64,000 nucleotides of DNA from Dehalococcoidia bacterium. Lineage in GTDB: Bacteria > Chloroflexota > Dehalococcoidia > Bin125. Below, piece after piece: positions 1 to 12,012 of the stretch. A program made the translations under genes and the position numbers. Position 1 is the stretch's first letter; each line of letters begins with the position of its first letter. The DNA lies in assembly GCA_965207695.1 (NCBI GenBank), contig CBDBNA010000005.1, positions 121,144 through 185,143 on the forward strand. Reading direction: 5' to 3'. The notes beneath the pieces are model-generated. The model searched no databases. It worked only from the letters and a program-made list of their open reading frames with translations, and was not told the DNA's origin.

Positions 1-62
1 CCCTCGCCGAAGCCGCCCGTGCCATCGTACCGCCCTTCGGGCGCGGGATCACCGCGTCCCTA

Positions 63-590
63 TTGAGACGTGCCGAAGGGTCGTGGGGTTCCCGTCCGTC
101 ACCCCCACCCCTCTCCCCGCCCTGTACCATGTCCACGGGCGGACCCACCGCCCAATCCGCGCGAAAGGGCGCCCGCGTGACCACCGAGCCGAAGTCTCCG
201 CCGCCTCCCGCCGCGCTCGGGCATAACGACGCGGCCCTGCACGATCAGGTCGGCCGTCTCTCCTCGCAACTGACGGAGTTGCGCGAGGAGGTGGAGCGGC
301 TGTCCGAGCGCAGCGTCTACGCCACTGCCATCACGACCTTGGCTTCGCCAGACTATGAACTCCTGCGTGACATCCCGATCACCGTGGAGGAGGATGGGGA
401 CGAAACCAGCGTCAGTTGGTTCGAGATCGGTCTGATGGGTGTGGACGACACCCCGGACGGAGCCCTCATTTCGTTTGAGAACCGCTTACTTCGCCTCTTC
501 GACGATCTCAACGCGATGGCGGATGACAAGTTGGGCCCACTCCCGTCTCGCTGGAAGCGGACGCTCGCGACGGTCATCCGTCACGCATGA
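63..590 (+). CDS. HicB-like antitoxin (UPF0150/HicB RNase-H-like fold); true start possibly at M at nt 129
   Basis: C-terminal segment PITVEEDGDETSVSWFEIGLMGVDDTPDGAL fits the HicB_lk_antitox pattern (..EeDGgyvA.vPeLpGc.sqGdTleEA). Its stop overlaps the next ORF's ATG by 4 bp (ATGA), which is typical TA coupling. Sits in a lower-GC patch. Confidence 0.45.
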   Translation: MRRAEGSWGSRPSPPPLSPPCTMSTGGPTAQSARKGARVTTEPKSPPPPAALGHNDAALHDQVGRLSSQLTELREEVERLSERSVYATAITTLASPDYELLRDIPITVEEDGDETSVSWFEIGLMGVDDTPDGALISFENRLLRLFDDLNAMADDKLGPLPSRWKRTLATVIRHA

Positions 591-883
591 AGCTTCCCGT
601 GTTCTCCTCGCGTGATGCCCAGCAAATGCTGCGGAAGCTCGGGATCGAGGCCGAGCAGACCAAAGAGGTGCACGGCAAGTTCTACTACGAGGGGAATCTC
701 ATCACCCAGTTCACGTTCCCGGGAAGCCACGGCGGGAGGGACTTGTCTCCGATCGTGAGGCAGTCCATCAGAAAGAACTCAAAACTCCCCCCGGAAGAAT
801 TCGTCAGGCTAATCAACTGTCCAATGCGACACGACGAGTACGTGGAAGCGCTCAAGAGGAAGGGCTTCATCCCGCCCGACTGA
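587..883 (+). CDS. HicA-like mRNA interferase toxin with a C-terminal extension
   Basis: KEVHGKFYY...FPGSHGGRDLSPIVRQSIRK resembles the HicA core (GSHh.f.hP....vPvHggkDLk.gtlksIlKq). About 56% GC against a roughly 70% background. Translationally coupled to the upstream ORF. Confidence 0.5.
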   Translation: MKLPVFSSRDAQQMLRKLGIEAEQTKEVHGKFYYEGNLITQFTFPGSHGGRDLSPIVRQSIRKNSKLPPEEFVRLINCPMRHDEYVEALKRKGFIPPD

Positions 884-1065
884 TCGGACGCCTGCGCCAG
901 ATGGACGAGGCCGGCCGGGTGCTACCCTTGGGACATGATGCAGTCGCTCAACGACGTGGCGCGCCCCCTCGCAACACGGGATGACCTGCACGCGGCCGAG
1001 ATCCGCGTCATCGGCGCCGTCGCGGCCATGCTCACCGTCGCGGTCCTGATTCTCAGCTTCACTTA

Positions 1066-1100
1066 GCCCCCGAGCCTGGCGTCGGGGGCGCTGCGCGTCC
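1066..1100. repeat. Short variant of the dispersed hairpin repeat (family A): CCCCCGAgcctggcGTCGGGGGCGCTGCGCGTCC
   Basis: Shares the GTCGGGGGCGCTtCGCGTC tail with the copies at 1216, 1356, 8360 and 7643. Contains an inverted repeat CCCCCGA/TCGGGGG. Confidence 0.4.
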
Positions 1101-1215
1101 GCGTGTCCGTAAGTGCTACAATGCGCGCGCCGGAGCCGGGGGCGCTACCCCCGCGGCCGTAGTGACCAAGGCATTGGACGGCCGCACCCCGTCGCCGGGG
1201 CGGCTCCGACACGCG

Positions 1216-1257
1216 CCCCCGACGATATATCGCGAGCCGTCGGGGGCGCTTCGCGTC
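1216..1257. repeat. Dispersed hairpin repeat family A, copy 1 (CCCCCGACGATATATCGCGAGCCGTCGGGGGCGCTTCGCGTC)
   Basis: Near-identical to the copies at 1356-1397 and 8360-8401. A 9-bp inverted repeat CCCCCGACG/CGTCGGGGG with a 13-nt loop. Confidence 0.8.
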
Positions 1258-1355
1258 TGCTAGACTGCTGGCGTGGGCGCGGGAGAGTTGCTAGCTCCCC
1301 GCGGGGCTGAGCCCTCTACGCTGGGGCCTCGTGGCAGCGATTGCCCACGCCAGCG

Positions 1356-1397
1356 CCCCCGACGATACATCGAGAGCCGTCGGGGGCGCTTCGCGTC
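1356..1397. repeat. Dispersed hairpin repeat family A, copy 2 (CCCCCGACGATACATCGAGAGCCGTCGGGGGCGCTTCGCGTC), about 30 bp upstream of the uvrD start
   Basis: Direct repeat of 1216-1257 (about 93% identity), lying 140 bp downstream of it. Confidence 0.8.
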
Positions 1398-1428
1398 CGA
1401 CCCCGACCGCCGCTGCTACGCTCCCCCC

Positions 1429-3894
1429 ATGCCGACCTCGCAGCGGCCCGACCTCCCCACCCTCGACCTCGACGGCCTCAACCCCGCCCAGCGCGAGGCG
1501 GTGACCGGGCCCGCCGGCCCGCTGCTCATCCTGGCCGGACCGGGCTCGGGCAAGACGCGCGTCATTGCCCACCGCATCGCCTGGCTGGTGCGCGAAACCG
1601 GCGTGCCGCCCTGGCGCATCCTGGCCGTCACCTTCACCAACAAGGCCGCCCGCGAGATGCGCGCCCGCGTCGAGGCGCTGCTGCCCGGCGGCCCCGACGA
1701 CCTCGGCACGCGCGGCATGGGGCTGGGCACCTTCCACGCCGTCTGCGCCCGCATCCTGCGCGCCGACGGCGAGGCGGTCGGCGTGCCGCGCGGCTTCGTC
1801 ATCTACGACGACGACGACCAGATCGCCATCGTCAAGCGCGCCCTCGAAGAGCTGTCGGTCGATACCCGCTACCACCCGGCCCGCCGCGTGCTGAGCGCCA
1901 TCTCGCGCGCCAAGAACGAGGGGCTGAGCGCCGAGACGGTGAGCGCCCACGCCGGCGACTACCGCCAGGAGGTCGTGGCGCGCTGCTTCGAGCGCTACCA
2001 GGCGGCGCTGCGCGAGAACGCGGCGGTCGATTTCGACGACCTGCTGGGCCGCACGCTGGAGCTGTTTGCGACGCAGCCGCCCGTCGCCGCGCGTTACCAG
2101 GAGCGGTTCGCGCACGTCCTGGTCGACGAGTTCCAGGACACGAACATCGTGCAGTACCGGCTGGCCCGCGCCTGGGCGGCCGGCCACGGCAGCCTGACCG
2201 TAGTGGGCGACCCCGACCAGTCGATCTACTCCTGGCGCGCCGCCGACATCCGCAACATCCTGCACTTCGCGCGCGACTTCCCCGACGCCACGACCGTGCG
2301 GCTCGAGCAGAACTACCGCTCGACCAAGGCCATCTGCCGCGCCGCCGACGCCGTCATCGACAAGGCCGCCGAGCGCATCCACAAGGAGCTTTGGACCGAC
2401 AACGCCGAGGGCGACCGCCCCGTCGTCTTCGAGGCCTACACCGAGGCCGAGGAGGCCGACGAGGTGGCCCGCGAGATCGAGTCGCGCATGGCCGCCGGCG
2501 ACTGGCGCCCCGGCGACGTCGCCGTCTGCTACCGCACCAACGCCCAGTCGCGCGTCGTCGAGGAGGCCTTCCTGCGCCGGGGCATCCCCTACCGGCTGAT
2601 CGGCGGCACGCGCTTCTACGCCCGCCGCGAGATCAAGGACCTGCTCGCCCTCTGCCGGCTGACCCTCAACCCGCACGACGACGTCGCCTTCGAGCGCATG
2701 GTCAACGTGCCGGGGCGCGGCGTCGGGCAGCGCACCCGCGCCCTGCTGCTCGACTGGGCCGACCGCCGCGACGCCTCGCTCTCGCAGGCCGCGCTGGCCG
2801 CCGTCCGCGGCACTGCATCACCCGACGGGGGCGACCCCCCGAGCGTCACGGCCCGCGCCCGCGCCGCCCTGCAGTCGTTCCTGGCCGTCGTGCAGGGCGC
2901 CCGCGAGCGCGCCGCGACGGGCACCGTCGAGCAGGTCATCGACCAGTTGCTGCGCGAGACCGGCTACCAGGACTACCTCTACCGCACCTTCGACGACGGC
3001 GAGGACCGCTGGAACAACGTGCAGGAGTTGCGCACCGTCGCGGCCAACTACGACGCCCTCGCCCCGGCGCCGAGCGAGGCCCTGCCCGACGCCCCCGGCG
3101 ACGAGGCCGCCGCGCCCGCCTCGGCGCTCGCCACCTTCCTGGCCGACGTCGCCCTCGTCGCCGACGTCGACAACCTCGAGGAGGGCCCGGCCGCCGTCAC
3201 GCTCATCACCCTGCACGCCGCCAAGGGCCTCGAGTTCCCCGCCGTCTTCCTCATCGGCATGGAGGAGAACATCCTGCCGCACGTGCGCTCCTTCGACGAC
3301 CCGTCGGCGCTCGAGGAGGAGCGCCGGCTCTGCTACGTGGGCATGACCCGCGCCCAGCGCTGGCTGTACTGCGGCTACGCCTTCCGCCGCGCGCTGGCCG
3401 GGCGGGCCGGGCACAACCCGCCCTCGCGCTACCTGGCCGACCTGCCGCCCGACGCGATCGACCGCCGCGGCCGCGCCGGCTCGTCGGCCCCCGGCCCGCT
3501 CAGCCCCGACGTGCGGCCGGCCCGCAACCGCTGGCTCACCTGGGACGACGCCGACTCGGCCCCGCCCGACCCGCGCGCCCGCGCCCGCCCCGCCGCCCCG
3601 CGCGCCCGTCCCGACCCCGACCGCTGGGACGGCGTCGACCCCGACCCCGACGCCCCACCCGCCCGCCGCCGCGTCCGCGAGGAGCCCGCCCCCTACGCCG
3701 CCGCGCCGCCGCCGCCCTCCCCCGCCGAGGCCCCCCTGCACCCCGGCGAGCGCGTCACGCATCGGGCCTTCGGACCCGGCGTCGTCGTGGCCGTCAAGTC
3801 CTCCGGCCGCGCCGACACCGAGATCACCGTCGCCTTCGACGGGGCGGGGATCAAGAAGCTGCTGCTGTCGCTCGCGCCGCTGGAGCGGGGGTAG
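1429..3894 (+). CDS. uvrD: ATP-dependent DNA helicase UvrD/PcrA (821 aa)
   Basis: Walker A GPGSGKT; helicase motifs (TFTNKAAREM, VLVDEFQDTN, VVGDPDQSIYSWRAA, QNYRST); C-terminal UvrD_C / Tudor-like tail. Start chosen at MPTSQRPDLPTLDLDGLNPAQREAV; the ORF-track N-terminal extension is upstream run-through. Confidence 0.9.
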   Translation: MPTSQRPDLPTLDLDGLNPAQREAVTGPAGPLLILAGPGSGKTRVIAHRIAWLVRETGVPPWRILAVTFTNKAAREMRARVEALLPGGPDDLGTRGMGLGTFHAVCARILRADGEAVGVPRGFVIYDDDDQIAIVKRALEELSVDTRYHPARRVLSAISRAKNEGLSAETVSAHAGDYRQEVVARCFERYQAALRENAAVDFDDLLGRTLELFATQPPVAARYQERFAHVLVDEFQDTNIVQYRLARAWAAGHGSLTVVGDPDQSIYSWRAADIRNILHFARDFPDATTVRLEQNYRSTKAICRAADAVIDKAAERIHKELWTDNAEGDRPVVFEAYTEAEEADEVAREIESRMAAGDWRPGDVAVCYRTNAQSRVVEEAFLRRGIPYRLIGGTRFYARREIKDLLALCRLTLNPHDDVAFERMVNVPGRGVGQRTRALLLDWADRRDASLSQAALAAVRGTASPDGGDPPSVTARARAALQSFLAVVQGARERAATGTVEQVIDQLLRETGYQDYLYRTFDDGEDRWNNVQELRTVAANYDALAPAPSEALPDAPGDEAAAPASALATFLADVALVADVDNLEEGPAAVTLITLHAAKGLEFPAVFLIGMEENILPHVRSFDDPSALEEERRLCYVGMTRAQRWLYCGYAFRRALAGRAGHNPPSRYLADLPPDAIDRRGRAGSSAPGPLSPDVRPARNRWLTWDDADSAPPDPRARARPAAPRARPDPDRWDGVDPDPDAPPARRRVREEPAPYAAAPPPPSPAEAPLHPGERVTHRAFGPGVVVAVKSSGRADTEITVAFDGAGIKKLLLSLAPLERG

Positions 3895-4034
3895 GGGCGG
3901 GGCAGCGCCCCTGTGTAAGATACGAAACATCCGTTCTTAGCGTTTCGCGCGCTTATGGTACCTCGGCGGTTGCTAGGTCGTTGCTCGTTGATACCGTGAC
4001 TCTCCGTCTTCTGAACGTGAAGGAGAATTACCCG

Positions 4035-5780
4035 ATGGACCTCACGGAAGCCGCAGCGCTGCTCGACAAGATTGCCGAAGAGCAATGCCACCCATTCAAG
4101 ATCGCGTCCGAGTTCAGGAAGCGGGCCGCGATCCCCGCGGATGCGGTAGTCCGGACCGCAGCTGCCGCTCTGCAGTACGACCTCACTGAGTCGGGCGAAT
4201 CGAGACGCGAGACATACGGGCCATTCGCTCCGATGCTCCAGACCGAAGACTTCGTGACGCCGCCGTATACGTGGGACGTACAAGACGACGTGCTGAATGC
4301 GTGGCAGCAACTTGCGGAGCTCGTCCATTCGCCGGTGGTCGCCGCCCGCCTCCAGGACTTGCTCTGGGTCACGAGCTTCGGCGAAGCCCCACACGAACAC
4401 GCGCGTGCCGCGATCAACAACTACATCTCGGCGTCAGCATTGCCCCACTGCGATGGGCTGGAGGCATTCGACTGCCTCGACCGGGCGTTCGATCTGTCCC
4501 GCCAACTCAATGTCCCCGGGGTGGGGGAACGTATCAGGCAGCGAGCTGTCGAAGAGCTTGTAGCCGAGTACAACCGCCTTGAGGCCGACGCACGTCCGGG
4601 CGTGGTGATCCGCCTCCTCACACTGCTGGTCAGCCTGCCCGCGGCCGATCAGCCGGATGATCTGCGCGGACTCCTGGACCAGGCTCACGTGCTCTTCGCG
4701 GGCAACTACCCAGACAATCGAATCGCACTGTTCCAGTTGCAACAGCGGCTCGCCCGCGGCGATCAAGCGGAGATTGAGCGCCTTCAGCGGGAAAGCGTCG
4801 AACTCTGGATCCAATGGGCGGCGCAGCAAGAGAGCGGCTGGCTTCGATTGGATGCCTTGGGCAAGGCCCTGGAGATCGCGAACAGCACAAGAACCACCGC
4901 GGACATGCGTGAGCCCATCCGGCTCATGATGCAGCAGACCGATCCGAGCGACCTCTACACCGAGTCGGCGGAGGTATCGTTCGAACTCCCGGCGGACGAG
5001 GTCGAGCGACTCATCGCTCTGATAGTCGGTGACGACAGCGTCGGTCGTGCCCTCGACCGCCTCGGCGCTTGGTGGCCTCCAACAGGCGACCTCCAGGAAA
5101 CTTCAGCTGCTGTTGATGAGCAGATGGAGAAGCTTGTGTTCTGGCGTCTCATCCCTCAGGTCATCACCGATCCCACGGGACATCCGCTTCGCGTCGTCGA
5201 CACTGACGAGGCAAAGCGTGCACTGGCAATGGTGCAGCACGGTGCATTTGCTGCGCGAGTCCATGCAGTGATCACAAGAAGAGCGCTCCTGGCGATTCAG
5301 GAAGCGTACGCCCCAGGCCAGCGAGAGCTTCATGAGGCCTTTCAGACCGCTCTAATCAACTCGCAACAGGCCGAGGTGTTTGCCAGGACGCTCCAACACT
5401 ACTGGGCCGGCCGGTTTGACGAGGCCATACACATCGCGCTGCCCCGCATCGAAGCTGTCCTTCGGCAAGCTCTGCTGATGGCAGGCGGCATCGCCCGCAA
5501 GCAACCGCATGGGGGGCGCTCTGGGGGGGTAAAGGCCCTCGGAGAAGTCCTTCAGGCACTGTCCCGGTGGATGCCCGAGGAGATGCGTTTCCCTTTCCGT
5601 GTCCTCCTGACCGATGACCGTGGCCTCAACTTACGAAATCGGTACATGCATGGTTTGCCTCCGCAGGACGAAAGCCAGCAAGCAACCGAGCAAGACGCCT
5701 CCCTCGTAATCCACATCATCACCCATCTTCGGCTGCTTAGTCTCCAACCATCAACGGAACCACCAGCGGACGACGACTAG
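4035..5780 (+). CDS. Hypothetical 581-aa all-alpha protein with a C-terminal HEPN-like domain (motif LRNRYMHG = R-x4-H-G); candidate RNase-type defense or abortive-infection protein
   Basis: Strong SD AAGGAG 9 bp upstream of the ATG. About 60% GC, clearly below the flanking genes. C-terminal ...IHIALPRIEAVLRQALLMAGG...LRNRYMHG fits the HEPN Rx4-6H signature. No similarity to housekeeping families that I recognise. Confidence 0.55.
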   Translation: MDLTEAAALLDKIAEEQCHPFKIASEFRKRAAIPADAVVRTAAAALQYDLTESGESRRETYGPFAPMLQTEDFVTPPYTWDVQDDVLNAWQQLAELVHSPVVAARLQDLLWVTSFGEAPHEHARAAINNYISASALPHCDGLEAFDCLDRAFDLSRQLNVPGVGERIRQRAVEELVAEYNRLEADARPGVVIRLLTLLVSLPAADQPDDLRGLLDQAHVLFAGNYPDNRIALFQLQQRLARGDQAEIERLQRESVELWIQWAAQQESGWLRLDALGKALEIANSTRTTADMREPIRLMMQQTDPSDLYTESAEVSFELPADEVERLIALIVGDDSVGRALDRLGAWWPPTGDLQETSAAVDEQMEKLVFWRLIPQVITDPTGHPLRVVDTDEAKRALAMVQHGAFAARVHAVITRRALLAIQEAYAPGQRELHEAFQTALINSQQAEVFARTLQHYWAGRFDEAIHIALPRIEAVLRQALLMAGGIARKQPHGGRSGGVKALGEVLQALSRWMPEEMRFPFRVLLTDDRGLNLRNRYMHGLPPQDESQQATEQDASLVIHIITHLRLLSLQPSTEPPADDD

Positions 5781-5785
5781 CCCCA

Positions 5786-5807
5786 CCCCCAACAGCACGG
5801 GGGCTTT
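5786..5807 (+). terminator. Possible intrinsic terminator (CCCCCaacagcacGGGGG followed by CTTT)
   Basis: A 5-bp GC stem immediately after the stop of the 4035-5780 gene, followed by a short T tract. Weak. Confidence 0.3.
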
Positions 5808-5874
5808 GAGTTGGCGCCGGTCCAGCGATTGTCCCCGCCTCGTATACTGCGCCGATGACAGCAAGGGGTGACCG

Positions 5875-6267
5875 ATGAGCAAGTGGAAGTGGGCCGCTGG
5901 GGCCATCGGCGTCATTGCGTTGGGCGCGTTCGCGGCGGCGTGGGCGCTCACCGAGGCAGACGTACTGCGCTGGGGCGCCACCGCCGCCCTGCACGACCGC
6001 ATTGAGGCCTTAGAGCGTCGGGCCGAGGCCGCGCCGAAGACGCCTGACTGGACCGTGCTCTCGCGCGAGGGGCCGGTGTTCCGCGTCGTCGGCGGCGCCC
6101 CCATCGTCGAAGCGTGCATCACCTACACGTCGCCGTCGGGCGTGCAAGAGCGCTGCCGCCTCATGGCGACGCGCGGCCCGGGCGGCGAAGCGGAGATGAT
6201 AGAAGACGTCGGCCCGTGCTGGGACCTGGCCCGCATCGGCGCCCCCCTGCCCGATTGCTGGCGCTGA
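5875..6267 (+). CDS. Hypothetical small secreted or membrane-anchored protein (130 aa)
   Basis: N-terminal hydrophobic segment WAAGAIGVIALGAFAAAWAL. RBS-like AAGGGG upstream. Lies inside the lower-GC island. Confidence 0.4.
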   Translation: MSKWKWAAGAIGVIALGAFAAAWALTEADVLRWGATAALHDRIEALERRAEAAPKTPDWTVLSREGPVFRVVGGAPIVEACITYTSPSGVQERCRLMATRGPGGEAEMIEDVGPCWDLARIGAPLPDCWR

Positions 6268-6273
6268 CCACAC

Positions 6274-6339
6274 CTACCCGGACATCCGCGGCGACGTGTG
6301 CATCTCCCTGCCCGCCCGCGGGCCCGCCGGCGACGGCAG
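6274..6339. repeat. 66-bp direct repeat B1 (CTACCCGGACATCCGCGGCGACGTGTGCATCTCCCTGCCCGCCCGCGGGCCCGCCGGCGACGGCAG)
   Basis: About 85% identical to 7578-7643. Together the two copies bracket the 6406-7575 gene. Confidence 0.8.
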
Positions 6340-6405
6340 TTCCGGGGACACCCGTCAGTTGGCACGCCGAGCTAGCATCGTGCGAGCATCCTTGAGCGGA
6401 TCCTG

Positions 6406-7575
6406 ATGACGAACAACCTGACCCTCTTCGACGACTTCGAGCGGACGAACACGTGCGAGAAGCCCTCAGCCCAGGAGATGGTCGATTTCATCAATGAGTC
6501 GGCTTGGCCATCGAGCGAGCGGGTCCGCGCCGTCTTCGAGCGGTGGTTCTCGCACTACCCCGACGATCGGAAGAAGAACCTACGTCGCCGCTTTCGCGAA
6601 GGTGCTCACCAGCACGACTCCGCGGCCTTCGAGCTCATGCTGCACGAACTCCTGCGCCGCCTGGATTTCGCGGTGGTCGTGGAGCCGGAACTCCGAGAGG
6701 GTCACGGAAGGCCGGACTTCGCGATCACGGACCGGCGTGGGCGCGCTTCGTACATCGAGGCGACCGTTGCGGAGTATACGGGTATGCGCCTCGGAGATCC
6801 GCTTCAGAACGAAGTCTTCGATACGATCAATGAGATACGTCCGCCGGACGGGATCGCATTGAGGGCAGACCCTCGCGGCGCGTTGGAGCAGGCCCCATCC
6901 CGCACGAGAGTCCAGGACACCGTCCGGGAGTGGCTGGAGGGGATCGATCCGGCACGCATCATCGACGGGGCGCCGGTCGAGAACCGGCGCCTCAAGTTCC
7001 GATGTGGGAAATGGAGGTTGAAGCTGACTGCGATTCCCTGGAAACGGGGCAACGCTCACCAGTTGATCCAGGCCGGGCCAATGCCTTTCAGCACCGACAT
7101 CGACGACGTCGCTTACTTGAAGAGCAAGCTACTTACCAAGGCACGCAAGTATCGCAACTTGGACAAGCCGTTGATCGTCGCCCTGAGCATCCCCGGCTCG
7201 CCCGTGGATGCCGACGGCCAGCTAGCGACGCTCTTCGGCGAGCGGGATGACTGCCACTCAATCGGGGGCGCTCACACGGTCGTGACGGGCACGGCTCGGA
7301 CTCCGGACTCAGCCTGGCTCGACAACGACGGGCCGCGTTCCCGGGGGCTCCATGGCGTCACGTTCTTTGGTGACTGGATGCAGTCCGTCGCCGGCTCTCA
7401 CGCCTGCACGTACATCAATCCCTTCATCGACGCCAAGATTCCCGACGAACTGCTTCAGTTAGGCAGTGCCCGGGTCGAAGACGGAACAGTCGTCTATGAG
7501 GAAGGCCCCCGCCTCGGGGAAATCCTCCGACTCCCCAAGGACTGGCCCGGCCCTCCGGGGATGCCGTCGGACTAG
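6406..7575 (+). CDS. Hypothetical 389-aa protein, possibly with a PD-(D/E)xK-like nuclease core; flanked by 66-bp direct repeats
   Basis: Lower GC in its 5' half. Segment AFELMLHELLRRLDFAVVVEPELREGHGRPDFAITD...ASYIEATV resembles an E...PD...ExK-type core with an atypical last position (T instead of K). No family that I recognise. Confidence 0.5.
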   Translation: MTNNLTLFDDFERTNTCEKPSAQEMVDFINESAWPSSERVRAVFERWFSHYPDDRKKNLRRRFREGAHQHDSAAFELMLHELLRRLDFAVVVEPELREGHGRPDFAITDRRGRASYIEATVAEYTGMRLGDPLQNEVFDTINEIRPPDGIALRADPRGALEQAPSRTRVQDTVREWLEGIDPARIIDGAPVENRRLKFRCGKWRLKLTAIPWKRGNAHQLIQAGPMPFSTDIDDVAYLKSKLLTKARKYRNLDKPLIVALSIPGSPVDADGQLATLFGERDDCHSIGGAHTVVTGTARTPDSAWLDNDGPRSRGLHGVTFFGDWMQSVAGSHACTYINPFIDAKIPDELLQLGSARVEDGTVVYEEGPRLGEILRLPKDWPGPPGMPSD

Positions 7576-7577
7576 CC

Positions 7578-7666
7578 CTACCCGAACATCCGCGGCGCCG
7601 TGTGCATCTCCCCGCCCGTCCACGGGTCGGCCAGCGACGGCAGCGCCGGGGGCGCTTCGCGTCCCC
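7578..7666. repeat. Direct repeat B2 (66 bp) fused to a partial family-A tail (CGCCGGGGGCGCTTCGCGTCCCCC)
   Basis: 7578-7643 matches 6274-6339. 7643-7666 matches the 3' part of the family-A repeat, so the A and B families appear to be related. Confidence 0.75.
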
Positions 7667-7704
7667 CACCCCCGCCCCTGCTACCCTCCACCCGAGGAGG
7701 CCCC

Positions 7705-8160
7705 ATGCCCACGTTCTCCGTCAACGACGACGCCCCCGACTGGCAACGCGACCACACCCGCCGCTACCTCGACTCGAACGGCGCCGACGGGCACGACTGG
7801 ATCGCGCCCAACGGCGACGGCCCCTACCCCACCCTGCTGCTGCTGACCGTCGGCCGGCGCAGCGGCGCCGAGCGCACGCTGCCCCTGATCTACGGCGATT
7901 ACGACGGCGCCTACGTGATCATCGCCTCGAAGGGCGGCGCGCCGGCCCACCCCTCCTGGTACGTCAACCTGGCCGCCAACCCCGAGGTCTGGGTGCAGGT
8001 GCGCGACCGCCGCACCGCCGCCACGGCCCGCACCGCCTCGGGCACCGAGCGCGCCGCCCTCTGGAAGCAGCTCGCCACCATCTACCCGCCCTACGACGAG
8101 TACCAGGAGCGCGCCAACCCGCGCGAGATCCCGGTCGTCGTGCTCGACCCGCACGACTAG
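7705..8160 (+). CDS. Deazaflavin (F420)-dependent nitroreductase/quinone reductase family protein (Ddn-like, PF04075)
   Basis: PTLLLLTVGRRSGAERTLPLIYGDYDGAYVIIASKGGAPAHPSWYVNLAANPEVWVQV is the characteristic family signature. RBS GAGGAGG upstream. Confidence 0.8.
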   Translation: MPTFSVNDDAPDWQRDHTRRYLDSNGADGHDWIAPNGDGPYPTLLLLTVGRRSGAERTLPLIYGDYDGAYVIIASKGGAPAHPSWYVNLAANPEVWVQVRDRRTAATARTASGTERAALWKQLATIYPPYDEYQERANPREIPVVVLDPHD

Positions 8161-8359
8161 GGCCTCAGGCGCCTCCCCATCCATCTCGATGGAGCGGAGG
8201 CCGTCGGGTGAAGTCGGCCGCCGGCCGCGCGTCCGGGGTGCTATACTGAGCGAGCCGGAGCCGGGAGGCGTCAACTCCCGCCGCCGTGCATCCAGGGGTC
8301 GCCATTTGGCCCCATGGTGCGTATAGGCGGCACTCCGCACACGGAGCGGCCCCGACCCG

Positions 8360-8401
8360 CCCCCGACGATACACCGTGGACCGTCGGGGGCGCTTCGCGT
8401 C
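8360..8401. repeat. Dispersed hairpin repeat family A, copy 3 (CCCCCGACGATACACCGTGGACCGTCGGGGGCGCTTCGCGTC)
   Basis: Matches 1216-1257 and 1356-1397. Sits 16 bp upstream of the 8418 start codon. Confidence 0.8.
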
Positions 8402-8417
8402 CGCGCCCGGAGTTCCC

Positions 8418-8828
8418 ATGCCCTCCTCCGTCATCCCCTCGTTCCGCTACGCCGACGCGCCCCGCATGATCGACTTCCTCTGCGACGCCTTCGGCTTCGA
8501 GCGCAACCTCGTCGTGCCCGACAGCGATGGCGGCGTCGCGCACGCGCAGCTGACCCTGGGCGACGGCATGATCATGCTCGGCTCGGCCCGCGACGACGAC
8601 TTCGGCGCGCTGGTCGTGACGGCCGCCGCGGCCGGCGCGCTGACCAGCTCCCCCTACGTGATCGTGCCCGACGTCGATGCGCACTGCGCGCGGGCCCGCG
8701 CCGCCGGGGCGGAGGTCGTGATGGAGCCGGCCGACCAGGACTACGGCGGCCGCCTCTACGCCGCCCGCGACCCCGAGGGGCAGCTCTGGAACTTCGGCTC
8801 CTACGACCCCTGGGCGGCGCCGGAGTAA
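8418..8828 (+). CDS. VOC family protein (glyoxalase/bleomycin-resistance fold)
   Basis: FRYADAPRMIDFLCDAFGFERNLVVPDSDGGVAHAQLTLGDGMIMLG...VVMEPADQDYGGRLYAARDPEGQLWNF is typical of VOC / PhnB-like proteins. Confidence 0.75.
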   Translation: MPSSVIPSFRYADAPRMIDFLCDAFGFERNLVVPDSDGGVAHAQLTLGDGMIMLGSARDDDFGALVVTAAAAGALTSSPYVIVPDVDAHCARARAAGAEVVMEPADQDYGGRLYAARDPEGQLWNFGSYDPWAAPE

Positions 8829-8838
8829 CCCCCCGCCG

Positions 8839-10353
8839 TCAGCCGATCCGCACGCCCTCGGCCGGGTAGCGGTAGCGCGCCTGGCCGCGGTCGGGCACGG
8901 TCAGCGCGACCATCAGCGGGGCCAGCCGGCCCACGAACATCAGCACGATCAGGATCGCCGTGCCCGCGCCCGAGAGCGTCGCCGTCACGCCCTGCGACCA
9001 GCCCACGTTGGCCAGCCCCGACATCGCCTCGAAGACCAGCGGCAGCACGGGGCCGTCCTCGGCCAGCATCATCGCGACCACGCCGACCGTCAGCGCCACG
9101 ACGCCCAGCAGCACGACCGCGATCGCCCGCAGCACGACGGCGTGCGGGATCTCGCGGCCGAACAGCTCGGCCTGGTGCCGCCCCCGCAGCGACGACACGA
9201 CCACCGCCAGCCCCACGACGAACGTGCCCACCTTGATCCCGCTCGCCGTCGAGGTGGAGGCGCCGCCGATGAACATCAGCGGCAGCAGCACGACGGTCGT
9301 CACGTCCTGCAGGGCGCTCATGTCCACCGCCGACATGCCCGTCGTGCGGTTGACCGAGAGGAAGAAGGAGTTGACCAGCGCCTCGAGCGGGGTGCGGCCG
9401 TCGAGCACGCGGCCCGACTGCACCTCGGCGGCGAGGAAGAGCGCCATGCAGCCGACGAGCAGGCCGGCCATCATCAGCACGACCATGCGCGTGTCGAGCG
9501 ACCAGCGCCGCCAGCCGCGCCGCAGGTCGAACACGGTCACGAAGGACAGGCTGCCCAGGAACGCCGCCACGCCCATCACGATCAGCGGGTAGGGCGCGCC
9601 GATCTGCGCTTGGAAGCTCTGCCGCCCGCCCATCAGGTCGAAGCCGGCGCTGTTGAAGGCCGAGACGGCGTGGAACAGCGCCGACCAGACCGCGCCCGCC
9701 CCGCCGAACTCGATCAGGAACCAGGGCAGCAGGAGGAGGAACGTCAGGACCTCCGCCACCGCGACGTAGATCAGCACCCGCCGCAGCAGCCGGCCGATGT
9801 CCCACTCGCCCGAGCCCGTCAACTCCATGCCGAAGAGGCTGCTGCCGCGCAGCCCGAAGCGGCGCCCCAGCAGCACCAGCAGCGAGCCCGCGTAGATCGT
9901 CACGCCCAGGCCGCCGATCTGGATCAGCGCGATGATCACGGCCTCGCCGAAGCCGCTCCAGTGCTCCGCCGTGTCGACCCGCACGAGGCCGGTCACGCAG
10001 ACCGCCGAGGTCGCCGTGAACAGCGCGTCGAGCCCGTTCGTCCAGCGGCCCGACTCCGCTGCCCAGGGCAGCGACAGCAGCGCCGCGCCGATGAGGATCG
10101 CCGCCCCGAAGGCGCCCACCAGGTACCAGGGCGTGGGGCGCAGGCGGATCACGCGCCGCGGGCGCTCGAGCGCGAAGACCTCCGTCTGCACGCGCCGGCG
10201 CCGCAGGACCACGTCGCCGGGGCGCCGCACCGTGCGCGACCGTGTCGTGCGCGCCTCCCCGCCGCCTCCGCCGCCGCCCCGTCCCCGCCGCGCCGCCGCC
10301 CGCCGCCACCCGGCCCGAAGCCACGCCCGCGGTCGCACAGCCATCGCCTCCAC
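8839..10353 (-). CDS. trkH: TrkH/KtrB family potassium uptake transporter
   Basis: Multi-pass membrane protein with repeated selectivity-filter-like segments (IQIGGLG, SAFNSAGF, GASTSTASGIKVGTF). N-terminal Arg/Gly-rich extension; the true start may lie downstream. Confidence 0.85.
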   Translation of the reverse strand: MEAMAVRPRAWLRAGWRRAAARRGRGGGGGGGEARTTRSRTVRRPGDVVLRRRRVQTEVFALERPRRVIRLRPTPWYLVGAFGAAILIGAALLSLPWAAESGRWTNGLDALFTATSAVCVTGLVRVDTAEHWSGFGEAVIIALIQIGGLGVTIYAGSLLVLLGRRFGLRGSSLFGMELTGSGEWDIGRLLRRVLIYVAVAEVLTFLLLLPWFLIEFGGAGAVWSALFHAVSAFNSAGFDLMGGRQSFQAQIGAPYPLIVMGVAAFLGSLSFVTVFDLRRGWRRWSLDTRMVVLMMAGLLVGCMALFLAAEVQSGRVLDGRTPLEALVNSFFLSVNRTTGMSAVDMSALQDVTTVVLLPLMFIGGASTSTASGIKVGTFVVGLAVVVSSLRGRHQAELFGREIPHAVVLRAIAVVLLGVVALTVGVVAMMLAEDGPVLPLVFEAMSGLANVGWSQGVTATLSGAGTAILIVLMFVGRLAPLMVALTVPDRGQARYRYPAEGVRIG

Positions 10354-10355
10354 CT

Positions 10356-10412
10356 CCCCCCGACGATACGCCCTCCGTCGCTACGCGCAGTCGTGAGGGG
10401 CGTCGGGTGTAC
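10356..10412. repeat. Divergent, longer variant of the family-A repeat (CCCCCGACGATACGCC...GGGGCGTCGGGTG)
   Basis: Head CCCCCGACGATAC and tail GGGGCGTCGGG resemble family A. Lies in the divergent intergenic region between trkH and the next plus-strand gene. Confidence 0.45.
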
Positions 10413-10463
10413 CATGGCCGCAGGTCGCAGAGCGACGTCCCAGGAAGGGATCCGACGTGCCCG

Positions 10464-11108
10464 ATGAACCGCAGTCCGCTCAGCCGCCTCCTCCACATCC
10501 GCCGCCTTCGTCGAACCCCGGCAGGATTCTCAGGGACGCTGGACAACCCCGGCGTCAGGCGAATAACGAACTCCGCTGACGACGCCGTGGACCCCGCTGA
10601 TGATCCGGGCGTCCCCCCGCCCCACGCTGCGCAGTCATTCGATCCCGAGAACTACCCGAGCCTCGACTTGGCGTTCCGGCAAGGCGTGCGCTCGTACTCG
10701 CAAGTCGCCGCCCGACTCACGGCCGTCCACGGACGGATCGATGCCCTTCAGTGGGCTGTGATATGGCTGACGGTCGCGTTCCCGATCGGTGTGCGGGCAG
10801 CCGACGGGGCCGCGAGCTTCACATCGGGATTCGCCATCGCTGCGTTCGCGTTGGCGGGAGTCACAGTCTTCCTGGGGCTGGCAGCCCGCGCATGGTCTGG
10901 AATGACGCTGGTCAACCCCGCCCGTCTCTACGCGCACTGGCTCCACCTGCCCGAAAAGGAGTTCAAGCTCCGCAGTCTCTATTGGGCGGGCCAGCACTTC
11001 GAAGAGAACTCCCGGGCCGTGAACCGGAAGTCGTTGCTTGCGTCGCTCATGGTCCTACTCCTGCTCGTCGAAGTCGGGCTGTTCGTCGCCTGGTTCGCGA
11101 GCACGTAG
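10464..11108 (+). CDS. Hypothetical membrane protein (start could instead be the in-frame ATG at 10413)
   Basis: Three to four predicted TM segments (WAVIWLTVAFPIGV, FAIAAFALAGVTVFLGLAA, LLASLMVLLLLVEVGLFVAWF). Lower GC (about 60%). The long 5' extension in the ORF track overlaps the trkH 5' end and is unlikely to be real. Confidence 0.45.
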   Translation: MNRSPLSRLLHIRRLRRTPAGFSGTLDNPGVRRITNSADDAVDPADDPGVPPPHAAQSFDPENYPSLDLAFRQGVRSYSQVAARLTAVHGRIDALQWAVIWLTVAFPIGVRAADGAASFTSGFAIAAFALAGVTVFLGLAARAWSGMTLVNPARLYAHWLHLPEKEFKLRSLYWAGQHFEENSRAVNRKSLLASLMVLLLLVEVGLFVAWFAST

Positions 11109-11139
11109 AGGCCGCTCCGGGCCTCCTTCCAGGCGCCTT

Positions 11140-11238
11140 GGGAGCCCCTTGGGAGCCCCTTCCGGACCCCTTCTGCACCCCTTCTGCACCCCTTCCGGAC
11201 CCCTTCTGCACCCCTTCTGCACCCCTTCCGGACCCCTT
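11140..11238. repeat. Perfect 11-bp tandem repeat array, 9 units (GGGAGCCCCTT x2; then [CCGGACCCCTT CTGCACCCCTT CTGCACCCCTT] x2 + CCGGACCCCTT), giving a 33-bp higher-order period
   Basis: Read directly from the sequence. Intergenic: 32 bp after the stop at 11108 and about 100 bp before the 11338 start. Confidence 0.95.
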
Positions 11239-11337
11239 GACGGACGAACGGACAACCCGCTACGATCATCCACAGAACCGCGTAACGCGTTCTGAGGCAC
11301 TTCGCGAACAATAGCTCGTCCCGACGCACGGGAGCCA

Positions 11338-12012
11338 ATGAGAGGCCCTCGTGTGTCCACTTCCATCGACGACCAACTACCCGATCCGCTGCCCGTCCGC
11401 GCCCGCAAGTGGGGCGCCGGCCCCCGCGTCCAGGAGCGCCTGCGCTCCGTCGCCGACCTCCGTCGGCGCGGCCTCGGGCGAGCCGAGATCGCCGCGAAAC
11501 TCGGCGTCTCCCCACCGACGATCTCCCGCGACCTGGCCCGCGTCGACCTGATCGAGCAGCACCAAGAGGCCGAGTTCGTGCACACGCAGCAGATCGAGTG
11601 CCTACTCTCCCTGCGCGAGCTCACGCTGGTCTGCTGGCACGTCATCTCCCGCTACCGCTACGACCCGGACCGCATCGCCGACATGGCCGCCGTCGCGAGC
11701 GTCGTCGTCGCCGCGCAGCGCGAGGCCGGGCGCATTCTCGCCGGCTCCCGAGACCCCAACGCCGGCGACTCCGACGGCGAGAATCGGGAGGACCAAGACA
11801 TAACCGAGGGAGAAACCCTCCTGATGAGCCTTCTCAACATCCAGAGACCCGATTATGGAGAGGGCGAGATCGCCGATCTGCGTCGGGCCGTCGACGCCGA
11901 TTTCTCCCGTTACCTGAAACCCTCCCGGCTCGCCGTCATCCAGCGCGGCCTGGCCCTCGTTCAACGCGACGCCCCCGACGCGCTGACGAACGCCGCCGCG
12001 CCCGACGACTGA
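11338..12012 (+). CDS. Hypothetical HTH-domain protein (sigma-70 region-4 / small-terminase-like helix-turn-helix), 224 aa
   Basis: LRRRGLGRAEIAAKLGVSPPTISRDLARV is a classic HTH. GC drops to about 52% in the 3' half. Bracketed by tandem-repeat arrays. Confidence 0.5.
   Translation: MRGPRVSTSIDDQLPDPLPVRARKWGAGPRVQERLRSVADLRRRGLGRAEIAAKLGVSPPTISRDLARVDLIEQHQEAEFVHTQQIECLLSLRELTLVCWHVISRYRYDPDRIADMAAVASVVVAAQREAGRILAGSRDPNAGDSDGENREDQDITEGETLLMSLLNIQRPDYGEGEIADLRRAVDADFSRYLKPSRLAVIQRGLALVQRDAPDALTNAAAPDD

What the first reader, a model, noticed from the sequence alone, without database searches (positions are those of the whole stretch)
3895..7666. Lower-GC island between uvrD and the F420 nitroreductase: HEPN-like large protein + small membrane protein + repeat-flanked 389-aa protein; a candidate uncharacterised defense / abortive-infection module
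Three co-directional ORFs (4035-5780, 5875-6267, 6406-7575) with no similarity to housekeeping families. Their GC is about 8-12 points below the flanking genes. The first has a consensus AAGGAG RBS and a C-terminal HEPN-like Rx4HG motif. The last is bracketed by 66-bp direct repeats. The island is bounded on both sides by copies of a dispersed hairpin repeat (1356-1397; 7643-7666; 8360-8401). HEPN RNases paired with membrane or nuclease partners are a recurring architecture in anti-phage systems, but this exact combination is not one I recognise.
Basis: partly seen in the sequence, partly recalled or inferred. Interest (0 to 1): 0.75.

Follow-up and report, generated by a model that had tools for sequence, protein, structure and literature searches.

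The report
Swappable defence-gene hotspot beside uvrD
The low-GC stretch after uvrD is not a new three-gene immune system: it is a strain-variable slot holding two unrelated, independently acquired single-gene candidate anti-phage nucleases (a HEPN RNase-type protein already listed as candidate PDC-S39, and an unnamed restriction-endonuclease-fold protein), plus a small lineage-specific membrane protein.

Summary
The three ORFs, the RBS, the RNxxxHG motif and the repeats flanking ORF3 are real. Only ORF1 and ORF3 are low-GC (62-63% against 72%; GC3 0.71 and 0.80 against 0.98). ORF2 has backbone-like GC.

- **ORF1** is DUF7380 plus a DUF4209 (C6orf70/ERMARD-type) HEPN domain, with invariant ExxxR and RNxxxH. 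It matches the untested PADLOC candidate PDC-S39 (4e-32).
- **ORF2** is a membrane-anchored four-cysteine protein found in only 13 database clusters.

Sister contigs with 85-99% identical UvrD carry other contents in this slot: ORF1 without ORF3, ORF3 without ORF1, two ORF1 paralogues, or SLFN/AlbA_2, MmeI, methyltransferase and PIN-DUF433 genes. A three-gene module is therefore refuted and a defence hotspot is supported.

ORF3 lies between two copies of a ~68-nt junction sequence. That sequence is single-copy in genomes lacking ORF3, which marks ORF3 as an inserted 1.3-kb cassette. Defence function is inferred from family, motifs and context, not shown.

The parts
1429..3894 (+). uvrD/pcrA helicase gene, the conserved left flank of the slot. 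The island begins directly after its stop codon.
   Evidence: Pfam hits UvrD-helicase 1e-85, UvrD_C and the PcrA/UvrD tudor domain. 95-98% DNA identity to L016, L014 and L001, ending at about 3897-3898 in L016 and L014. An ATG at 1429 gives 821 aa, matching the length called in L001 and L010.
4020..4025 (+). AAGGAG ribosome-binding site of ORF1
   Evidence: Read directly from the sequence, 9 nt upstream of the ATG at 4035.
4035..5780 (+). ORF1, 581 aa: N-terminal DUF7380, a central alpha-helical solenoid and a C-terminal DUF4209 (C6orf70/ERMARD-type) HEPN domain. Member of the PADLOC candidate family PDC-S39.
   Evidence: Pfam DUF4209 9e-12 (45.3 bits, cut-off 22.3) and DUF7380 7e-11. Both domains are found in all 18 homologues. 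PADLOC PDC-S39 4e-32 over residues 35-549. AF2 model pLDDT 86.7, all-helical. GC 62.1%, GC3 0.71.
5451..5654 (+). Predicted HEPN catalytic motifs of ORF1: E473xxxR477 (nt 5451-5465) and R534-N535-xxx-H539-G540 (nt 5634-5654).
   Evidence: Invariant columns in alignment A1, whose members are down to 26% identical. The motif definition comes from PMC3710099 and from the bioRxiv preprint 10.64898/2026.05.28.728550.
5786..5803 (+). Terminator-like hairpin 6 nt after the ORF1 stop (CCCCC-N8-GGGGG followed by CTTTGAGTTG). Weak evidence that ORF1 is its own transcription unit.
   Evidence: The number of such sites in the region is no more than chance, so only the position is suggestive.
5875..6267 (+). 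ORF2, 130 aa: N-terminal transmembrane or signal-anchor helix, a short coiled-coil segment and a C-terminal domain with four invariant cysteines ending in LPDCWR. Lineage-restricted, backbone-like GC.
   Evidence: No Pfam, NCBIfam, PADLOC or PHROG hit. Only 13 clusters match among 5.8 billion sequences. Invariant C81, C94, C115, C128. GC 72.5%, GC3 0.885.
6266..6347 (+). Junction repeat, copy 1 (core about 6272-6340), directly after the ORF2 stop.
   Evidence: The same sequence is single-copy after ORF2 in L001 and L003.
6406..7575 (+). ORF3, 389 aa: N-terminal PD-(D/E)xK (restriction-endonuclease-like) core with E76 (nt 6631), D104 (6715), E118 (6757) and K245 (7138), plus a family-specific C-terminal region of about 250 aa.
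7570..7651 (+). Junction repeat, copy 2, directly after the ORF3 stop. Its reverse complement reads ...ALPSLADPWTGGEMHTAPRMFG*, which from LPSLADPW onwards matches the last 21 residues of a methyltransferase-Mrr fusion gene that sits at this point in L015 and L010, except for the final residue (G in the window, S in the methyltransferases).
7644..7667 (+). The 3' half of the backbone hairpin repeat. Its 5' arm is truncated at the junction with repeat copy 2. This marks the right edge of the inserted material.
   Evidence: The alignment with L003 shows the intact hairpin at the same position before the F420 gene.
7705..8160 (+). F420H2-dependent quinone reductase-family gene, the conserved right flank.
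   Evidence: Pfam F420H2_quin_red is assigned to the orthologues in L001, L011 and L014. 94-97% amino-acid identity to L001, L003, L014 and L016. GC3 0.987.

Best explanation
The interval between the uvrD stop (3894) and the F420H2-quinone-reductase gene (7705) is a hypervariable gene slot. It occurs in a lineage of uncultured, high-GC bacteria; the closest named relative is a Chloroflexota MAG.

In this genome the slot holds three independent units.

1. ORF1 is a stand-alone, foreign-composition gene of the DUF7380 + DUF4209 HEPN family (PADLOC candidate PDC-S39). Inferred mechanism: the N-terminal and solenoid part keeps the protein inactive or senses an infection cue. The C-terminal HEPN domains of two subunits then pair their RNxxxH motifs into a metal-independent RNase site that cuts RNA, stopping phage growth by abortive infection.

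2. ORF3 is a stand-alone PD-(D/E)xK nuclease of a large unnamed family. It sits on a 1.3-kb cassette that entered by recombination at a ~68-nt junction sequence, which is now duplicated on both sides. Inferred mechanism: Mg-dependent cleavage of nucleic acid using E76, D104, E118 and K245. It acts either as a modification-dependent (type IV-like) restriction enzyme or as an abortive-infection nuclease of the PD-T7-5 kind.

3. ORF2 is a lineage-restricted, membrane-anchored four-cysteine protein that belongs to the slot itself. It is not a partner of either nuclease.

Shown here: gene content, domain families, conserved motifs, fold of ORF3, composition, presence/absence across sister genomes, and the filled versus empty site. 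Inferred: nuclease activities, triggers, anti-phage function and the recombination route.
For: Families and motifs:
- ORF1 matches Pfam DUF4209 and DUF7380 above the curated cut-offs in all 18 homologues and PADLOC PDC-S39 at 4e-32.
- ExxxR and RNxxxH are invariant.
- DUF4209/C6orf70 was classified as a catalytically active HEPN family found in R-M-related operons (PMC3710099).
- ORF3 has a restriction-endonuclease-like fold with invariant E/D/E/K residues. Four of six members scanned (the window's ORF3, P0045, P0048 and the A. baumannii plasmid copy) give weak partial PD-T7-5 hits, one (the P. aeruginosa plasmid copy) a stronger partial hit at 1.3e-8, and one (P0052) none.

Foreign origin:
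- GC3 is 0.71 and 0.80 for ORF1 and ORF3, against 0.98 in the flanks.

Independence of the genes:
- L016 (uvrD DNA 98% identical): SLFN_AlbA_2, an ORF2 homologue and ORF3. No ORF1.
- L014: ORF3 only.
- L001 and L003: ORF1 and ORF2 only.
- L011: two ORF1 paralogues flanking uvrD, plus MmeI.
- L010 and L012: ORF1 without an intact ORF2 (L010 keeps only a 51-residue ORF2-like fragment about 4 kb away).

Other evidence:
- Defence-type neighbours in sister slots include MmeI, XamI/Eco57I-type R-M, an N6_N4 methyltransferase, SLFN_AlbA_2, PIN-DUF433, Fic, NYN and HNH.
- Distant ORF1 homologues have no conserved neighbour.
- Plasmid homologues of ORF3 lie next to a type III CBASS operon and in IS-rich islands. 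Another homologue abuts an MmeI-type enzyme.
- Cassette evidence: the repeat is single-copy after ORF2 in L001 and L003, and double around ORF3 in the window, L016 and L014.
- ORF1 alleles at the same site are only 48-56% identical, while the flanking proteins are 93-97% identical.
Against: - No experiment supports defence for PDC-S39. In the searched literature it appears only as a label in genome surveys. The ORF3 family has no experimental support either.
- The lysine of the canonical ExK triad is not conserved in ORF3. Assigning that role to K245 is inference.
- ORF1 and ORF2 are adjacent in three distinct sister contexts examined here (L001, L003, and L002, a short Logan contig with the same two proteins as L001), and probably in one more contig, so a local functional link cannot be fully excluded.
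- All sister loci are metagenome contigs, and several are short.
- The junction repeat could be a relic of a methyltransferase gene rather than a recombination site.
Confidence: 0.6

Rival explanations
1. One reading: ORF1, ORF2 and ORF3 form one three-gene defence or abortive-infection system, with a HEPN RNase, a membrane partner and a nuclease.
For: The three genes are co-directional and adjacent in the window. HEPN and nuclease domains are both present.
Against: None of the 15 related loci examined (L002 shares its genes with L001) carries all three genes together. ORF1 occurs without ORF3 in L001, L003, L010, L011, L012, L013 and L004-L007. ORF3 occurs without ORF1 in L014, L015, L016, L019 and on plasmids. 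The three genes have three different compositions. ORF3 sits on its own repeat-flanked cassette.
Confidence: 0.04
2. ORF1 and ORF2 form a two-gene system. The membrane-anchored ORF2 would act as sensor, anchor or immunity partner of the HEPN protein.
For: ORF2 homologues directly follow ORF1 homologues in L001 (L002 is a short contig with the same two proteins) and L003. P0005 and P0061 share a longest-contig length of 30,322. ORF2 is a real conserved protein.
Against: ORF1 homologues lack an intact adjacent ORF2 in L010, L011 (both copies), L012 and L004-L007. ORF2 sits 7 kb from ORF1 in L013, and pairs with ORF3 and no ORF1 in L016. The ORF2 family is confined to 13 clusters, whereas ORF1-type proteins occur across phyla. 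ORF2 has backbone-like GC3, and a terminator-like hairpin separates the two genes.
Confidence: 0.12
3. ORF3 is the endonuclease of a type II restriction-modification pair, and its methyltransferase has been deleted here. The flanking repeats would be relics of the 3' end of that methyltransferase gene.
Against: That methyltransferase carries its own Mrr-like nuclease domain (DGGIDG...QVK). It also occurs without ORF3 in L010. ORF3 homologues lack an adjacent methyltransferase in the window, L014, L016 and on the Acinetobacter and Pseudomonas plasmids. A deletion relic cannot explain the copy upstream of ORF3, nor the identical repeat boundaries in eight loci. An orphan active restriction enzyme would be lethal.
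Confidence: 0.12
4. The genes have a non-defence role. ORF1 would be an RNA-processing or quality-control RNase like eukaryotic ERMARD, and ORF3 a DNA-repair nuclease working with UvrD.
For: ORF1 homologues are repeatedly found next to uvrD. L011 has one on each side, and uvrD 3' fragments travel with ORF1 in L010, L012 and L013. The eukaryotic DUF4209 protein is predicted to have a housekeeping role.
Against: Both genes are present or absent among genomes whose uvrD is 96-98% identical at the DNA level. Both have foreign codon composition. ORF1 alleles differ by about 50%. More distant homologues are not near uvrD. Neighbours are R-M, toxin-antitoxin and Schlafen-type genes.
Confidence: 0.08

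Closest known systems
PADLOC candidate system PDC-S39 (single-gene 'phage defence candidate'; DUF4209-containing proteins)
   Same: Near full-length HMM match (4e-32 over residues 35-549 against profile positions 52-582 of 615). Single-gene organisation. Located among defence genes (and the context calls).
   Different: PDC-S39 is an untested prediction. The window protein is a distant member from an uncultured, Chloroflexota-like lineage. Its closest plasmid-borne relatives, in Streptomyces, are 26-29% identical.
C6orf70/ERMARD-type HEPN family (Pfam PF13910, DUF4209; Anantharaman et al. 2013)
   Same: A C-terminal DUF4209 domain with the ExxxR and R-N-xxx-H motifs. Fusion to alpha-helical (TPR-like) repeats. 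The bacterial versions were noted in R-M-related operons.
   Different: The eukaryotic protein is ER-membrane anchored and is predicted to carry two HEPN-like motifs in one chain. ORF1 has no transmembrane segment and only one RNxxxH, so a homodimeric active site is expected (inference).
PD-T7-5 (single-gene PD-(D/E)xK anti-phage protein from E. coli, Vassallo et al. 2022)
   Same: Single gene of similar size. A PD-(D/E)xK core near the N-terminus. The HMM hits cover exactly that core. ORF3 scores 6e-5 and a Pseudomonas plasmid member of the ORF3 family scores 1.3e-8.
   Different: The match covers at most profile positions 25-115 of 346 (25-102 for ORF3 itself). The remaining ~250 residues are unrelated at the sequence level. 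ORF3 belongs to a separate, much larger unnamed family.
CdiA-CT (Burkholderia pseudomallei 1026b) and other toxin, restriction or effector nucleases of the PD-(D/E)xK fold (XisH, NucC, HamA, NgoMIV and others)
   Different: Sequence identity is only 10-16%. ORF3 has no delivery domain, no immunity gene, no cyclic-nucleotide sensor and no helicase partner.
Defence-island hotspots and cassette arrays at conserved chromosomal sites (for example the Acinetobacter or P4-type hotspots, and integron cassettes)
   Same: Conserved flanking core genes with strain-specific defence content. One gene is bracketed by direct repeats, and an empty site exists in relatives.
   Different: No integrase or recombinase gene was seen in the slot. 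The ~68-nt junction repeat shows no attC-like hairpin. Only two copies occur in 64 kb.

Membership tests
HEPN superfamily (ORF1 C-terminus) | Conserved Rx4-6H (R-phi-xxx-H) motif | tested here: met
   R534-N535-R-Y-M-H539. R534, N535 and H539 are invariant in 18 homologues.
HEPN superfamily (ORF1 C-terminus) | Significant match to a family classified as HEPN | tested here: met
   Pfam DUF4209 at 45.3 bits against a cut-off of 22.3, found in 18 of 18 members. DUF4209 is listed as the C6orf70 HEPN family in PMC3710099.
HEPN superfamily (ORF1 C-terminus) | Additional ExxxR/K motif in the first core helix | tested here: met
   E473 and R477 are invariant and lie on helix 461-482 of the model.
HEPN superfamily (ORF1 C-terminus) | Four-helix up-down bundle fold matching solved HEPN structures | tested here: inconclusive
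HEPN superfamily (ORF1 C-terminus) | Metal-independent RNase activity from a dimeric composite site | not testable with these tools
   Needs biochemistry.
PADLOC PDC-S39 | Match to the PDC-S39 HMMs over most of the protein, as a single gene | tested here: met
   PDLC05012 at 4e-32 and PDLC05011 at 4e-22. No conserved neighbour across loci.
PADLOC PDC-S39 | Demonstrated anti-phage activity | not testable with these tools
   The family is itself only a candidate. Only two listed papers mention the label, one a phage-receptor fitness screen and one a clinical-isolate phage-resistance survey; neither was opened.
HEPN-MNT or other HEPN toxin-antitoxin pair | Adjacent minimal nucleotidyltransferase or other cognate antitoxin | tested here: not met
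   ORF2 has no family hit and is not linked to ORF1 across loci.
PD-(D/E)xK nuclease superfamily (ORF3) | Restriction-endonuclease-like alpha-beta-beta-beta-alpha core | tested here: met
PD-(D/E)xK nuclease superfamily (ORF3) | Catalytic E...(P)D...(D/E)xK residues | tested here: inconclusive
   E76, P103-D104 and E118 are invariant. The position of the K is variable (T/N/K/M/A/S). An invariant K245 on a later helix may replace it.
PD-T7-5 | Full-length similarity to the PD-T7-5 profile | tested here: not met
   Only profile positions 25-102 of 346 are matched, at E 6e-5. Four of the five other family members scanned also match only the core and one (P0052) has no hit.
Type II restriction-modification system (ORF3 as the endonuclease) | Adjacent cognate methyltransferase | tested here: not met
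   No methyltransferase lies in the window's slot. Only a 66-nt stretch equal to a methyltransferase 3' end is present. Also absent in L014, L016 and the plasmid loci.
Integron-type gene cassette (ORF3 plus repeat) | attC-like imperfect palindrome that folds as single-stranded DNA | tested here: not met
   The fold z-score lies between -0.4 and +1.3 on both strands, with RNA and DNA parameters.
Integron-type gene cassette (ORF3 plus repeat) | Adjacent integrase | tested here: not met
   No integrase or recombinase domain appears among the called genes around the slot in L001, L010, L011, L014, L015 or L016. The rest of the window was not annotated.
Genomic defence hotspot | Conserved flanks with variable, defence-enriched content among close relatives | tested here: met
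   UvrD is 85-99% and the F420 protein 89-97% identical, while the slot contents differ in every locus.

The most novel reading that the evidence does not exclude
The ~68-nt junction sequence (CCCTACCCGAACATCCGCGGCG.CGTGTGCATCTCCCCGCCCGTCCACGGGTCGGCCAGCGACGGCAG) could be the recombination site of a previously undescribed cassette-exchange mechanism. That mechanism would load single-gene defence cassettes into a uvrD-linked slot without an integron integrase or an attC hairpin. The cassettes would include ORF3, and perhaps ORF1, which travels with a uvrD 3' fragment. ORF3 would then found a large new family of stand-alone anti-phage nucleases (more than 5,000 sequence clusters, no Pfam model).
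Probability: 0.15. Interest if true: 0.65.

Novelty: new member of a known kind. Interest (0 to 1): 0.4.

Why it matters
- The analysis replaces a proposed new three-gene immune system with a better-supported picture: a chromosomal slot beside uvrD where related uncultured bacteria swap single-gene defence candidates.
- It gives PDC-S39 (DUF7380 + DUF4209 HEPN) natural-variation support. Alleles at one site differ by about 50% while the flanks are 93-97% identical. That pattern fits an arms-race gene.
- It flags a very large family of ~390-aa PD-(D/E)xK proteins with no Pfam model that repeatedly sits beside R-M, CBASS and toxin-antitoxin genes. This family is a reasonable candidate for experimental testing.
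- The comparison of filled and empty sites around ORF3 offers a concrete handle on how such cassettes move.

Tried and rejected
**Searches that found nothing**
- Rfam E-value scan of 1-12,000: no hit.
- Exact scan of the JGI metagenome contigs with a 27-nt repeat core: no match.
- Viral-contig scan with the ORF3 alignment: no relative.
- PHROGs: only marginal hits, partial or with no stretch passing on its own.
- PDB sequence searches with the ORF1 and ORF3 profiles: nothing significant.
- Literature searches for DUF7380, for the plasmid protein accessions and for the PHROG id: nothing.
- PDC-S39 appears in the literature only as a survey label.

**Searches that were uninformative or failed**
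- Context look-ups for P0001, P0008, P0009 and P0039 were not on record.
- The cluster-member look-up gave no organism names.
- The window's own genome is not among the GTDB species representatives.

**Ideas considered and rejected**
- The repeat as a structured RNA or an attC site: no folding signal.
- The hairpin repeats as island ends: they are backbone elements.
- ORF2 homology to the 137-aa gene after uvrD in L011 and L015: no ORF2 match was found in either locus, and in L011 that gene matches window 109-594 instead.

**Left open**
- Whether the methyltransferase tail encoded by the repeat is ancestral. Plasmid homologues align only to residues 456-469 of 481, which is suggestive but not conclusive.

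Full report
**1. The observation**

The window is high-GC (72.1%). GC falls to 0.60-0.66 between about 3,800 and 7,600, except over 5,800-6,400, where it is 0.71-0.72.

- ORF1 is preceded by AAGGAG at 4020-4025.
- Per gene, ORF1 is 62.1% GC (GC3 0.71) and ORF3 is 63.3% (GC3 0.80).
- ORF2 is 72.5% (GC3 0.885).
- The flanking F420 and TrkH genes have GC3 of 0.98.

ORF1 and ORF3 are therefore compositionally foreign. ORF2 is much closer to the backbone.

The direct repeat around ORF3 is 82 nt at 84% identity, at 6266-6347 and 7570-7651. Its core occurs only at those two places in 64 kb, against 0 expected.

The hairpin repeat is real: 5 copies against 0.06 expected, with fold z-scores of -3.7 and -2.7. 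All copies sit in backbone intergenic regions, upstream of uvrD, the F420 gene and the glyoxalase gene. Hairpin copies matched in L001, L010, L011, L014 and L016, and in L001, L014 and L016 a copy lies just upstream of uvrD as in the window, regardless of the slot contents. It does not delimit the island.

**2. ORF1**

- Pfam gives DUF7380 (residues 9-159) and DUF4209 (residues 472-562). Both are above their curated cut-offs and both are found in all 18 aligned homologues.
- PADLOC gives PDC-S39 at 4e-32 over nearly the whole protein.
- DUF4209 is the C6orf70/ERMARD family. Anantharaman et al. (PMC3710099) classified it as a catalytically competent HEPN family, fused to TPR-like repeats, whose bacterial members occur in R-M-related operons.
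- In alignment A1, whose members are down to 26% identical, E473, R477, R534, N535 and H539 are invariant. These are the ExxxR and R-phi-xxx-H motifs that define HEPN active sites.
- The AF2 model (pLDDT 86.7) is entirely helical, with a long central solenoid.
- No solved relative exists by sequence.

**3. ORF3**

- ORF3 has no Pfam or NCBIfam hit.
- It gives a partial PADLOC hit to PD-T7-5 (6e-5, profile positions 25-102 of 346). PD-T7-5 is a single-gene PD-(D/E)xK system.
- The AF2 model (pLDDT 81.7) places invariant E76 on a helix, P103-D104 at the start of a strand, and E118 on the next strand. This is the canonical PD-(D/E)xK arrangement.
- The K of ExK is not conserved. Invariant K245 may substitute for it, but this is inference.
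- A profile search of 1.84 billion cluster representatives finds 5,433 members (2,143 at E ≤ 1e-30). Most of the 150 best-scoring members run about 375-415 aa. ORF3 therefore belongs to a large unnamed family.
- Four other family members scanned match PD-T7-5 only over the nuclease core (best 1.3e-8), and one (P0052) does not match at all. The family is related to PD-T7-5 but is not part of it.

**4. ORF2**

- ORF2 has no family hit in any library.
- Only 13 clusters match in 5.8 billion sequences.
- The alignment shows an invariant N-terminal hydrophobic helix, a VLRWGA...HDRIEALE segment, a variable linker and a C-terminal domain with four invariant cysteines ending in LPDCWR.
- It is a genuine conserved protein, probably membrane-anchored with a disulfide-bonded outer domain (inference). 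It is restricted to this lineage.

**5. Comparison with sister genomes (the decisive test)**

Related loci were recovered from ENA, NCBI and GTDB assemblies. The nearest named one is a Chloroflexota MAG, L003. Contents of the slot, with identities:

| Locus | UvrD identity | Gene order around the slot |
|---|---|---|
| L016 | 98-99% | UvrD, SLFN_AlbA_2, ORF2 homologue (51%), repeat, ORF3 (90%), repeat, DUF433-PIN, F420. No ORF1. |
| L014 | 96% | UvrD, uvrD-like fragments, repeat, ORF3 (87%), repeat, DUF433, F420. No ORF1, no ORF2. |
| L001 | 93% | UvrD, ORF1 (48%), ORF2 (68%), repeat, DUF433, F420. An ORF3 homologue lies 8 kb away on the other strand. |
| L003 | 97% (C-terminal 94 aa only) | UvrD, ORF1 (56%), ORF2 (64%), repeat, F420. 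|
| L011 | 87% | ORF1 paralogue, UvrD, 137-aa gene, second ORF1 paralogue, MmeI, pentapeptide protein ... F420. |
| L010 | 86% | Fic, DUF433-PIN, SLFN_AlbA_2, methyltransferase, uvrD 3' fragment, ORF1 (60%), UvrD, PIN-DUF433, MmeI. |
| L012 | not applicable | uvrD fragment, ORF1 (48%), HNH ... XamI/Eco57I-type R-M. |
| L015 | 85% | DUF433, ORF3 (70%), methyltransferase-Mrr fusion, MmeI, UvrD. |

What this shows:
- More distant ORF1 homologues (33-42% identical, in Dehalococcoidia and Tepidiformaceae) have no ORF2, ORF3 or uvrD nearby. Their neighbours vary: acyl-CoA dehydrogenases, a STAND-type NTPase and Fic.
- ORF1 and ORF3 therefore never require each other. ORF2 accompanies either one or neither. 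The three-gene module is refuted, and so, largely, is an ORF1-ORF2 pair.
- Against L016, window homology stops 4 nt after the uvrD stop and resumes at ORF2 and the cassette. ORF1 is replaced there by a Schlafen/AlbA_2 gene.
- Where ORF1 is present at the same site, the alleles are only 48-56% identical while the flanking proteins are 93-97% identical. Against L001, 95% DNA identity runs through the first 144 nt of ORF1 and then collapses. This indicates allele replacement by recombination inside the gene.

**6. The repeats around ORF3**

- An alignment of twelve copies from nine loci shows a common core of about 68 nt with sharp shared ends.
- The core is single-copy after ORF2 in L001 and L003 (the empty site). 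It is double, bracketing ORF3, in the window, L016 and L014. ORF3 homologues are always followed by one copy.
- The window and L016 share the whole repeat-ORF3-repeat unit at 92% identity, against 98% for the backbone.
- The simplest reading is that a 1.3-kb unit (ORF3 plus one repeat) entered by a single crossover at the resident copy. Whether the crossover was homologous or site-specific is unknown.
- The repeat shows no RNA or single-stranded-DNA folding signal. It is not attC-like, and no recombinase gene is in the slot.
- Its reverse complement reads ...ALPSLADPWTGGEMHTAPRMFG*; from LPSLADPW onwards this matches the last 21 residues of the methyltransferase-Mrr fusion gene in L015 and L010 except for the final residue, G versus S. 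The repeat may therefore derive from that gene, or that gene may simply end inside it. Full-length plasmid homologues of the methyltransferase align only to residues 456-469 of 481, which does not settle the question.

**7. Wider context of the two families**

- ORF1-type proteins occur on Streptomyces, Rhodococcus and rhizobial plasmids, annotated as DUF4209 proteins.
- ORF3-type proteins occur on Acinetobacter, Pseudomonas and Mycolicibacterium plasmids.
- On A. baumannii pWM98-2, the homologue starts 4 nt after the NucC effector of a type III CBASS operon. That operon is preceded by HTH and ImmA/IrrE-family regulator genes.
- On a P. aeruginosa plasmid, the homologue lies in an IS-rich region near a HEPN gene.
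- In L019 it abuts an MmeI-type enzyme, with toxin-antitoxin and transposase genes nearby.
- These contexts are typical of defence islands. They are not proof of function.

**8. Mechanism and verdict**

- ORF1 is most likely a stand-alone HEPN RNase of the abortive-infection type. Its large helical N-terminal part would regulate or sense, and its single RNxxxH motif implies a dimeric site. All of this is inferred.
- ORF3 is most likely a stand-alone Mg-dependent nuclease. It would act as a modification-dependent restriction enzyme or as a PD-T7-5-like abortive-infection effector (inferred).
- ORF2 is probably a resident envelope protein of the slot.
- The finding is a real horizontally acquired defence-type island, but it is not a new system. 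ORF1 is a new member of a catalogued candidate family. ORF3 belongs to a widespread, unnamed nuclease family.
- The more unusual aspects are the uvrD-linked cassette slot and its junction repeat.
- Interest is moderate (0.4).

Noticed in passing
window 1080-1103, 1214-1265, 1354-1405, 7644-7667, 8358-8409: A hairpin repeat (CGCCCCCGACG, 13 nt, CGTCGGGGGCG, then CTTCGCGTCC) with five copies, all on the + strand and all in the first 8.4 kb of the 64-kb window. Each lies in an intergenic region upstream of uvrD, the F420 gene or the glyoxalase gene. The fold is strong (z -3.7). Copies also matched in L001, L010, L011, L014 and L016. It could be a terminator, a promoter module or a lineage-specific REP-like element. 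No Rfam family matches.
   Followed up: partly
window 1113-1140 and 8238-8265: A paired 28-nt repeat (GTGCTAcAaTGcGCGcGCCGGAGCCGGG, 86% identity) containing an extended -10-like TGCTAnAnT. Each copy lies about 100-120 nt upstream of a hairpin-repeat copy. These may be small non-coding transcription units.
   Followed up: no
window 11136-11238: An intergenic tandem array of about ten 11-nt units (CCCCTT followed by CTGCA, CCGGA or GGGAG; a 33-nt super-unit is 100% conserved). It lies upstream of an HTH-type gene at 11338-12012. The one-helical-turn periodicity suggests iteron-like or regulator-binding sites. The surrounding 10.6-11.4 kb is also lower in GC (0.645-0.68).
   Followed up: no
L010 7682-7858; L012 892-1004; L013 7794-7887: ORF1 homologues carry a 100-180-nt copy of the uvrD 3' end (tudor-domain coding) immediately upstream, even where the full uvrD lies elsewhere or is inverted. 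This suggests the ORF1 unit moves together with, or by recombination at, the uvrD 3' end.
   Followed up: partly
L011 420-2129 and 5378-7123: One sister contig has two diverged ORF1 paralogues (52% and 58% identical to the window's ORF1), one on each side of uvrD.
   Followed up: no
L015 9171-10616 (- strand); L010 6110-7249 (- strand): An N6_N4 methyltransferase fused to a C-terminal Mrr-like nuclease domain (DGGIDG...QVK). Its last 21 residues, from LPSLADPW, are encoded by the reverse complement of the junction repeat. The L010 copy begins at the position of residue 103 of the L015 protein and may be 5'-truncated.
   Followed up: partly
L017 (A. baumannii plasmid pWM98-2) 2846-7164: An ORF3-family gene follows, with a 4-nt gap, the NucC effector of a type III CBASS operon (cyclase, 171-aa protein, AAA ATPase, NucC). 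Adjacent HTH and ImmA/IrrE-family genes (likely regulators) precede the operon. It may be an accessory or second effector there.
   Followed up: partly
window 4035-4178 compared with L001 8001-8144: The first 144 nt of ORF1 are 95% identical to the L001 allele, after which DNA similarity collapses. This indicates a recombination breakpoint inside the gene (a mosaic allele).
   Followed up: partly
L014 5562-7897 (- strand): Two uvrD-like gene fragments (362 and 278 aa, 24-30% identical to UvrD) lie between the true uvrD and the ORF3 cassette. They may be remnants of a second, divergent SF1 helicase gene in the slot.
   Followed up: no
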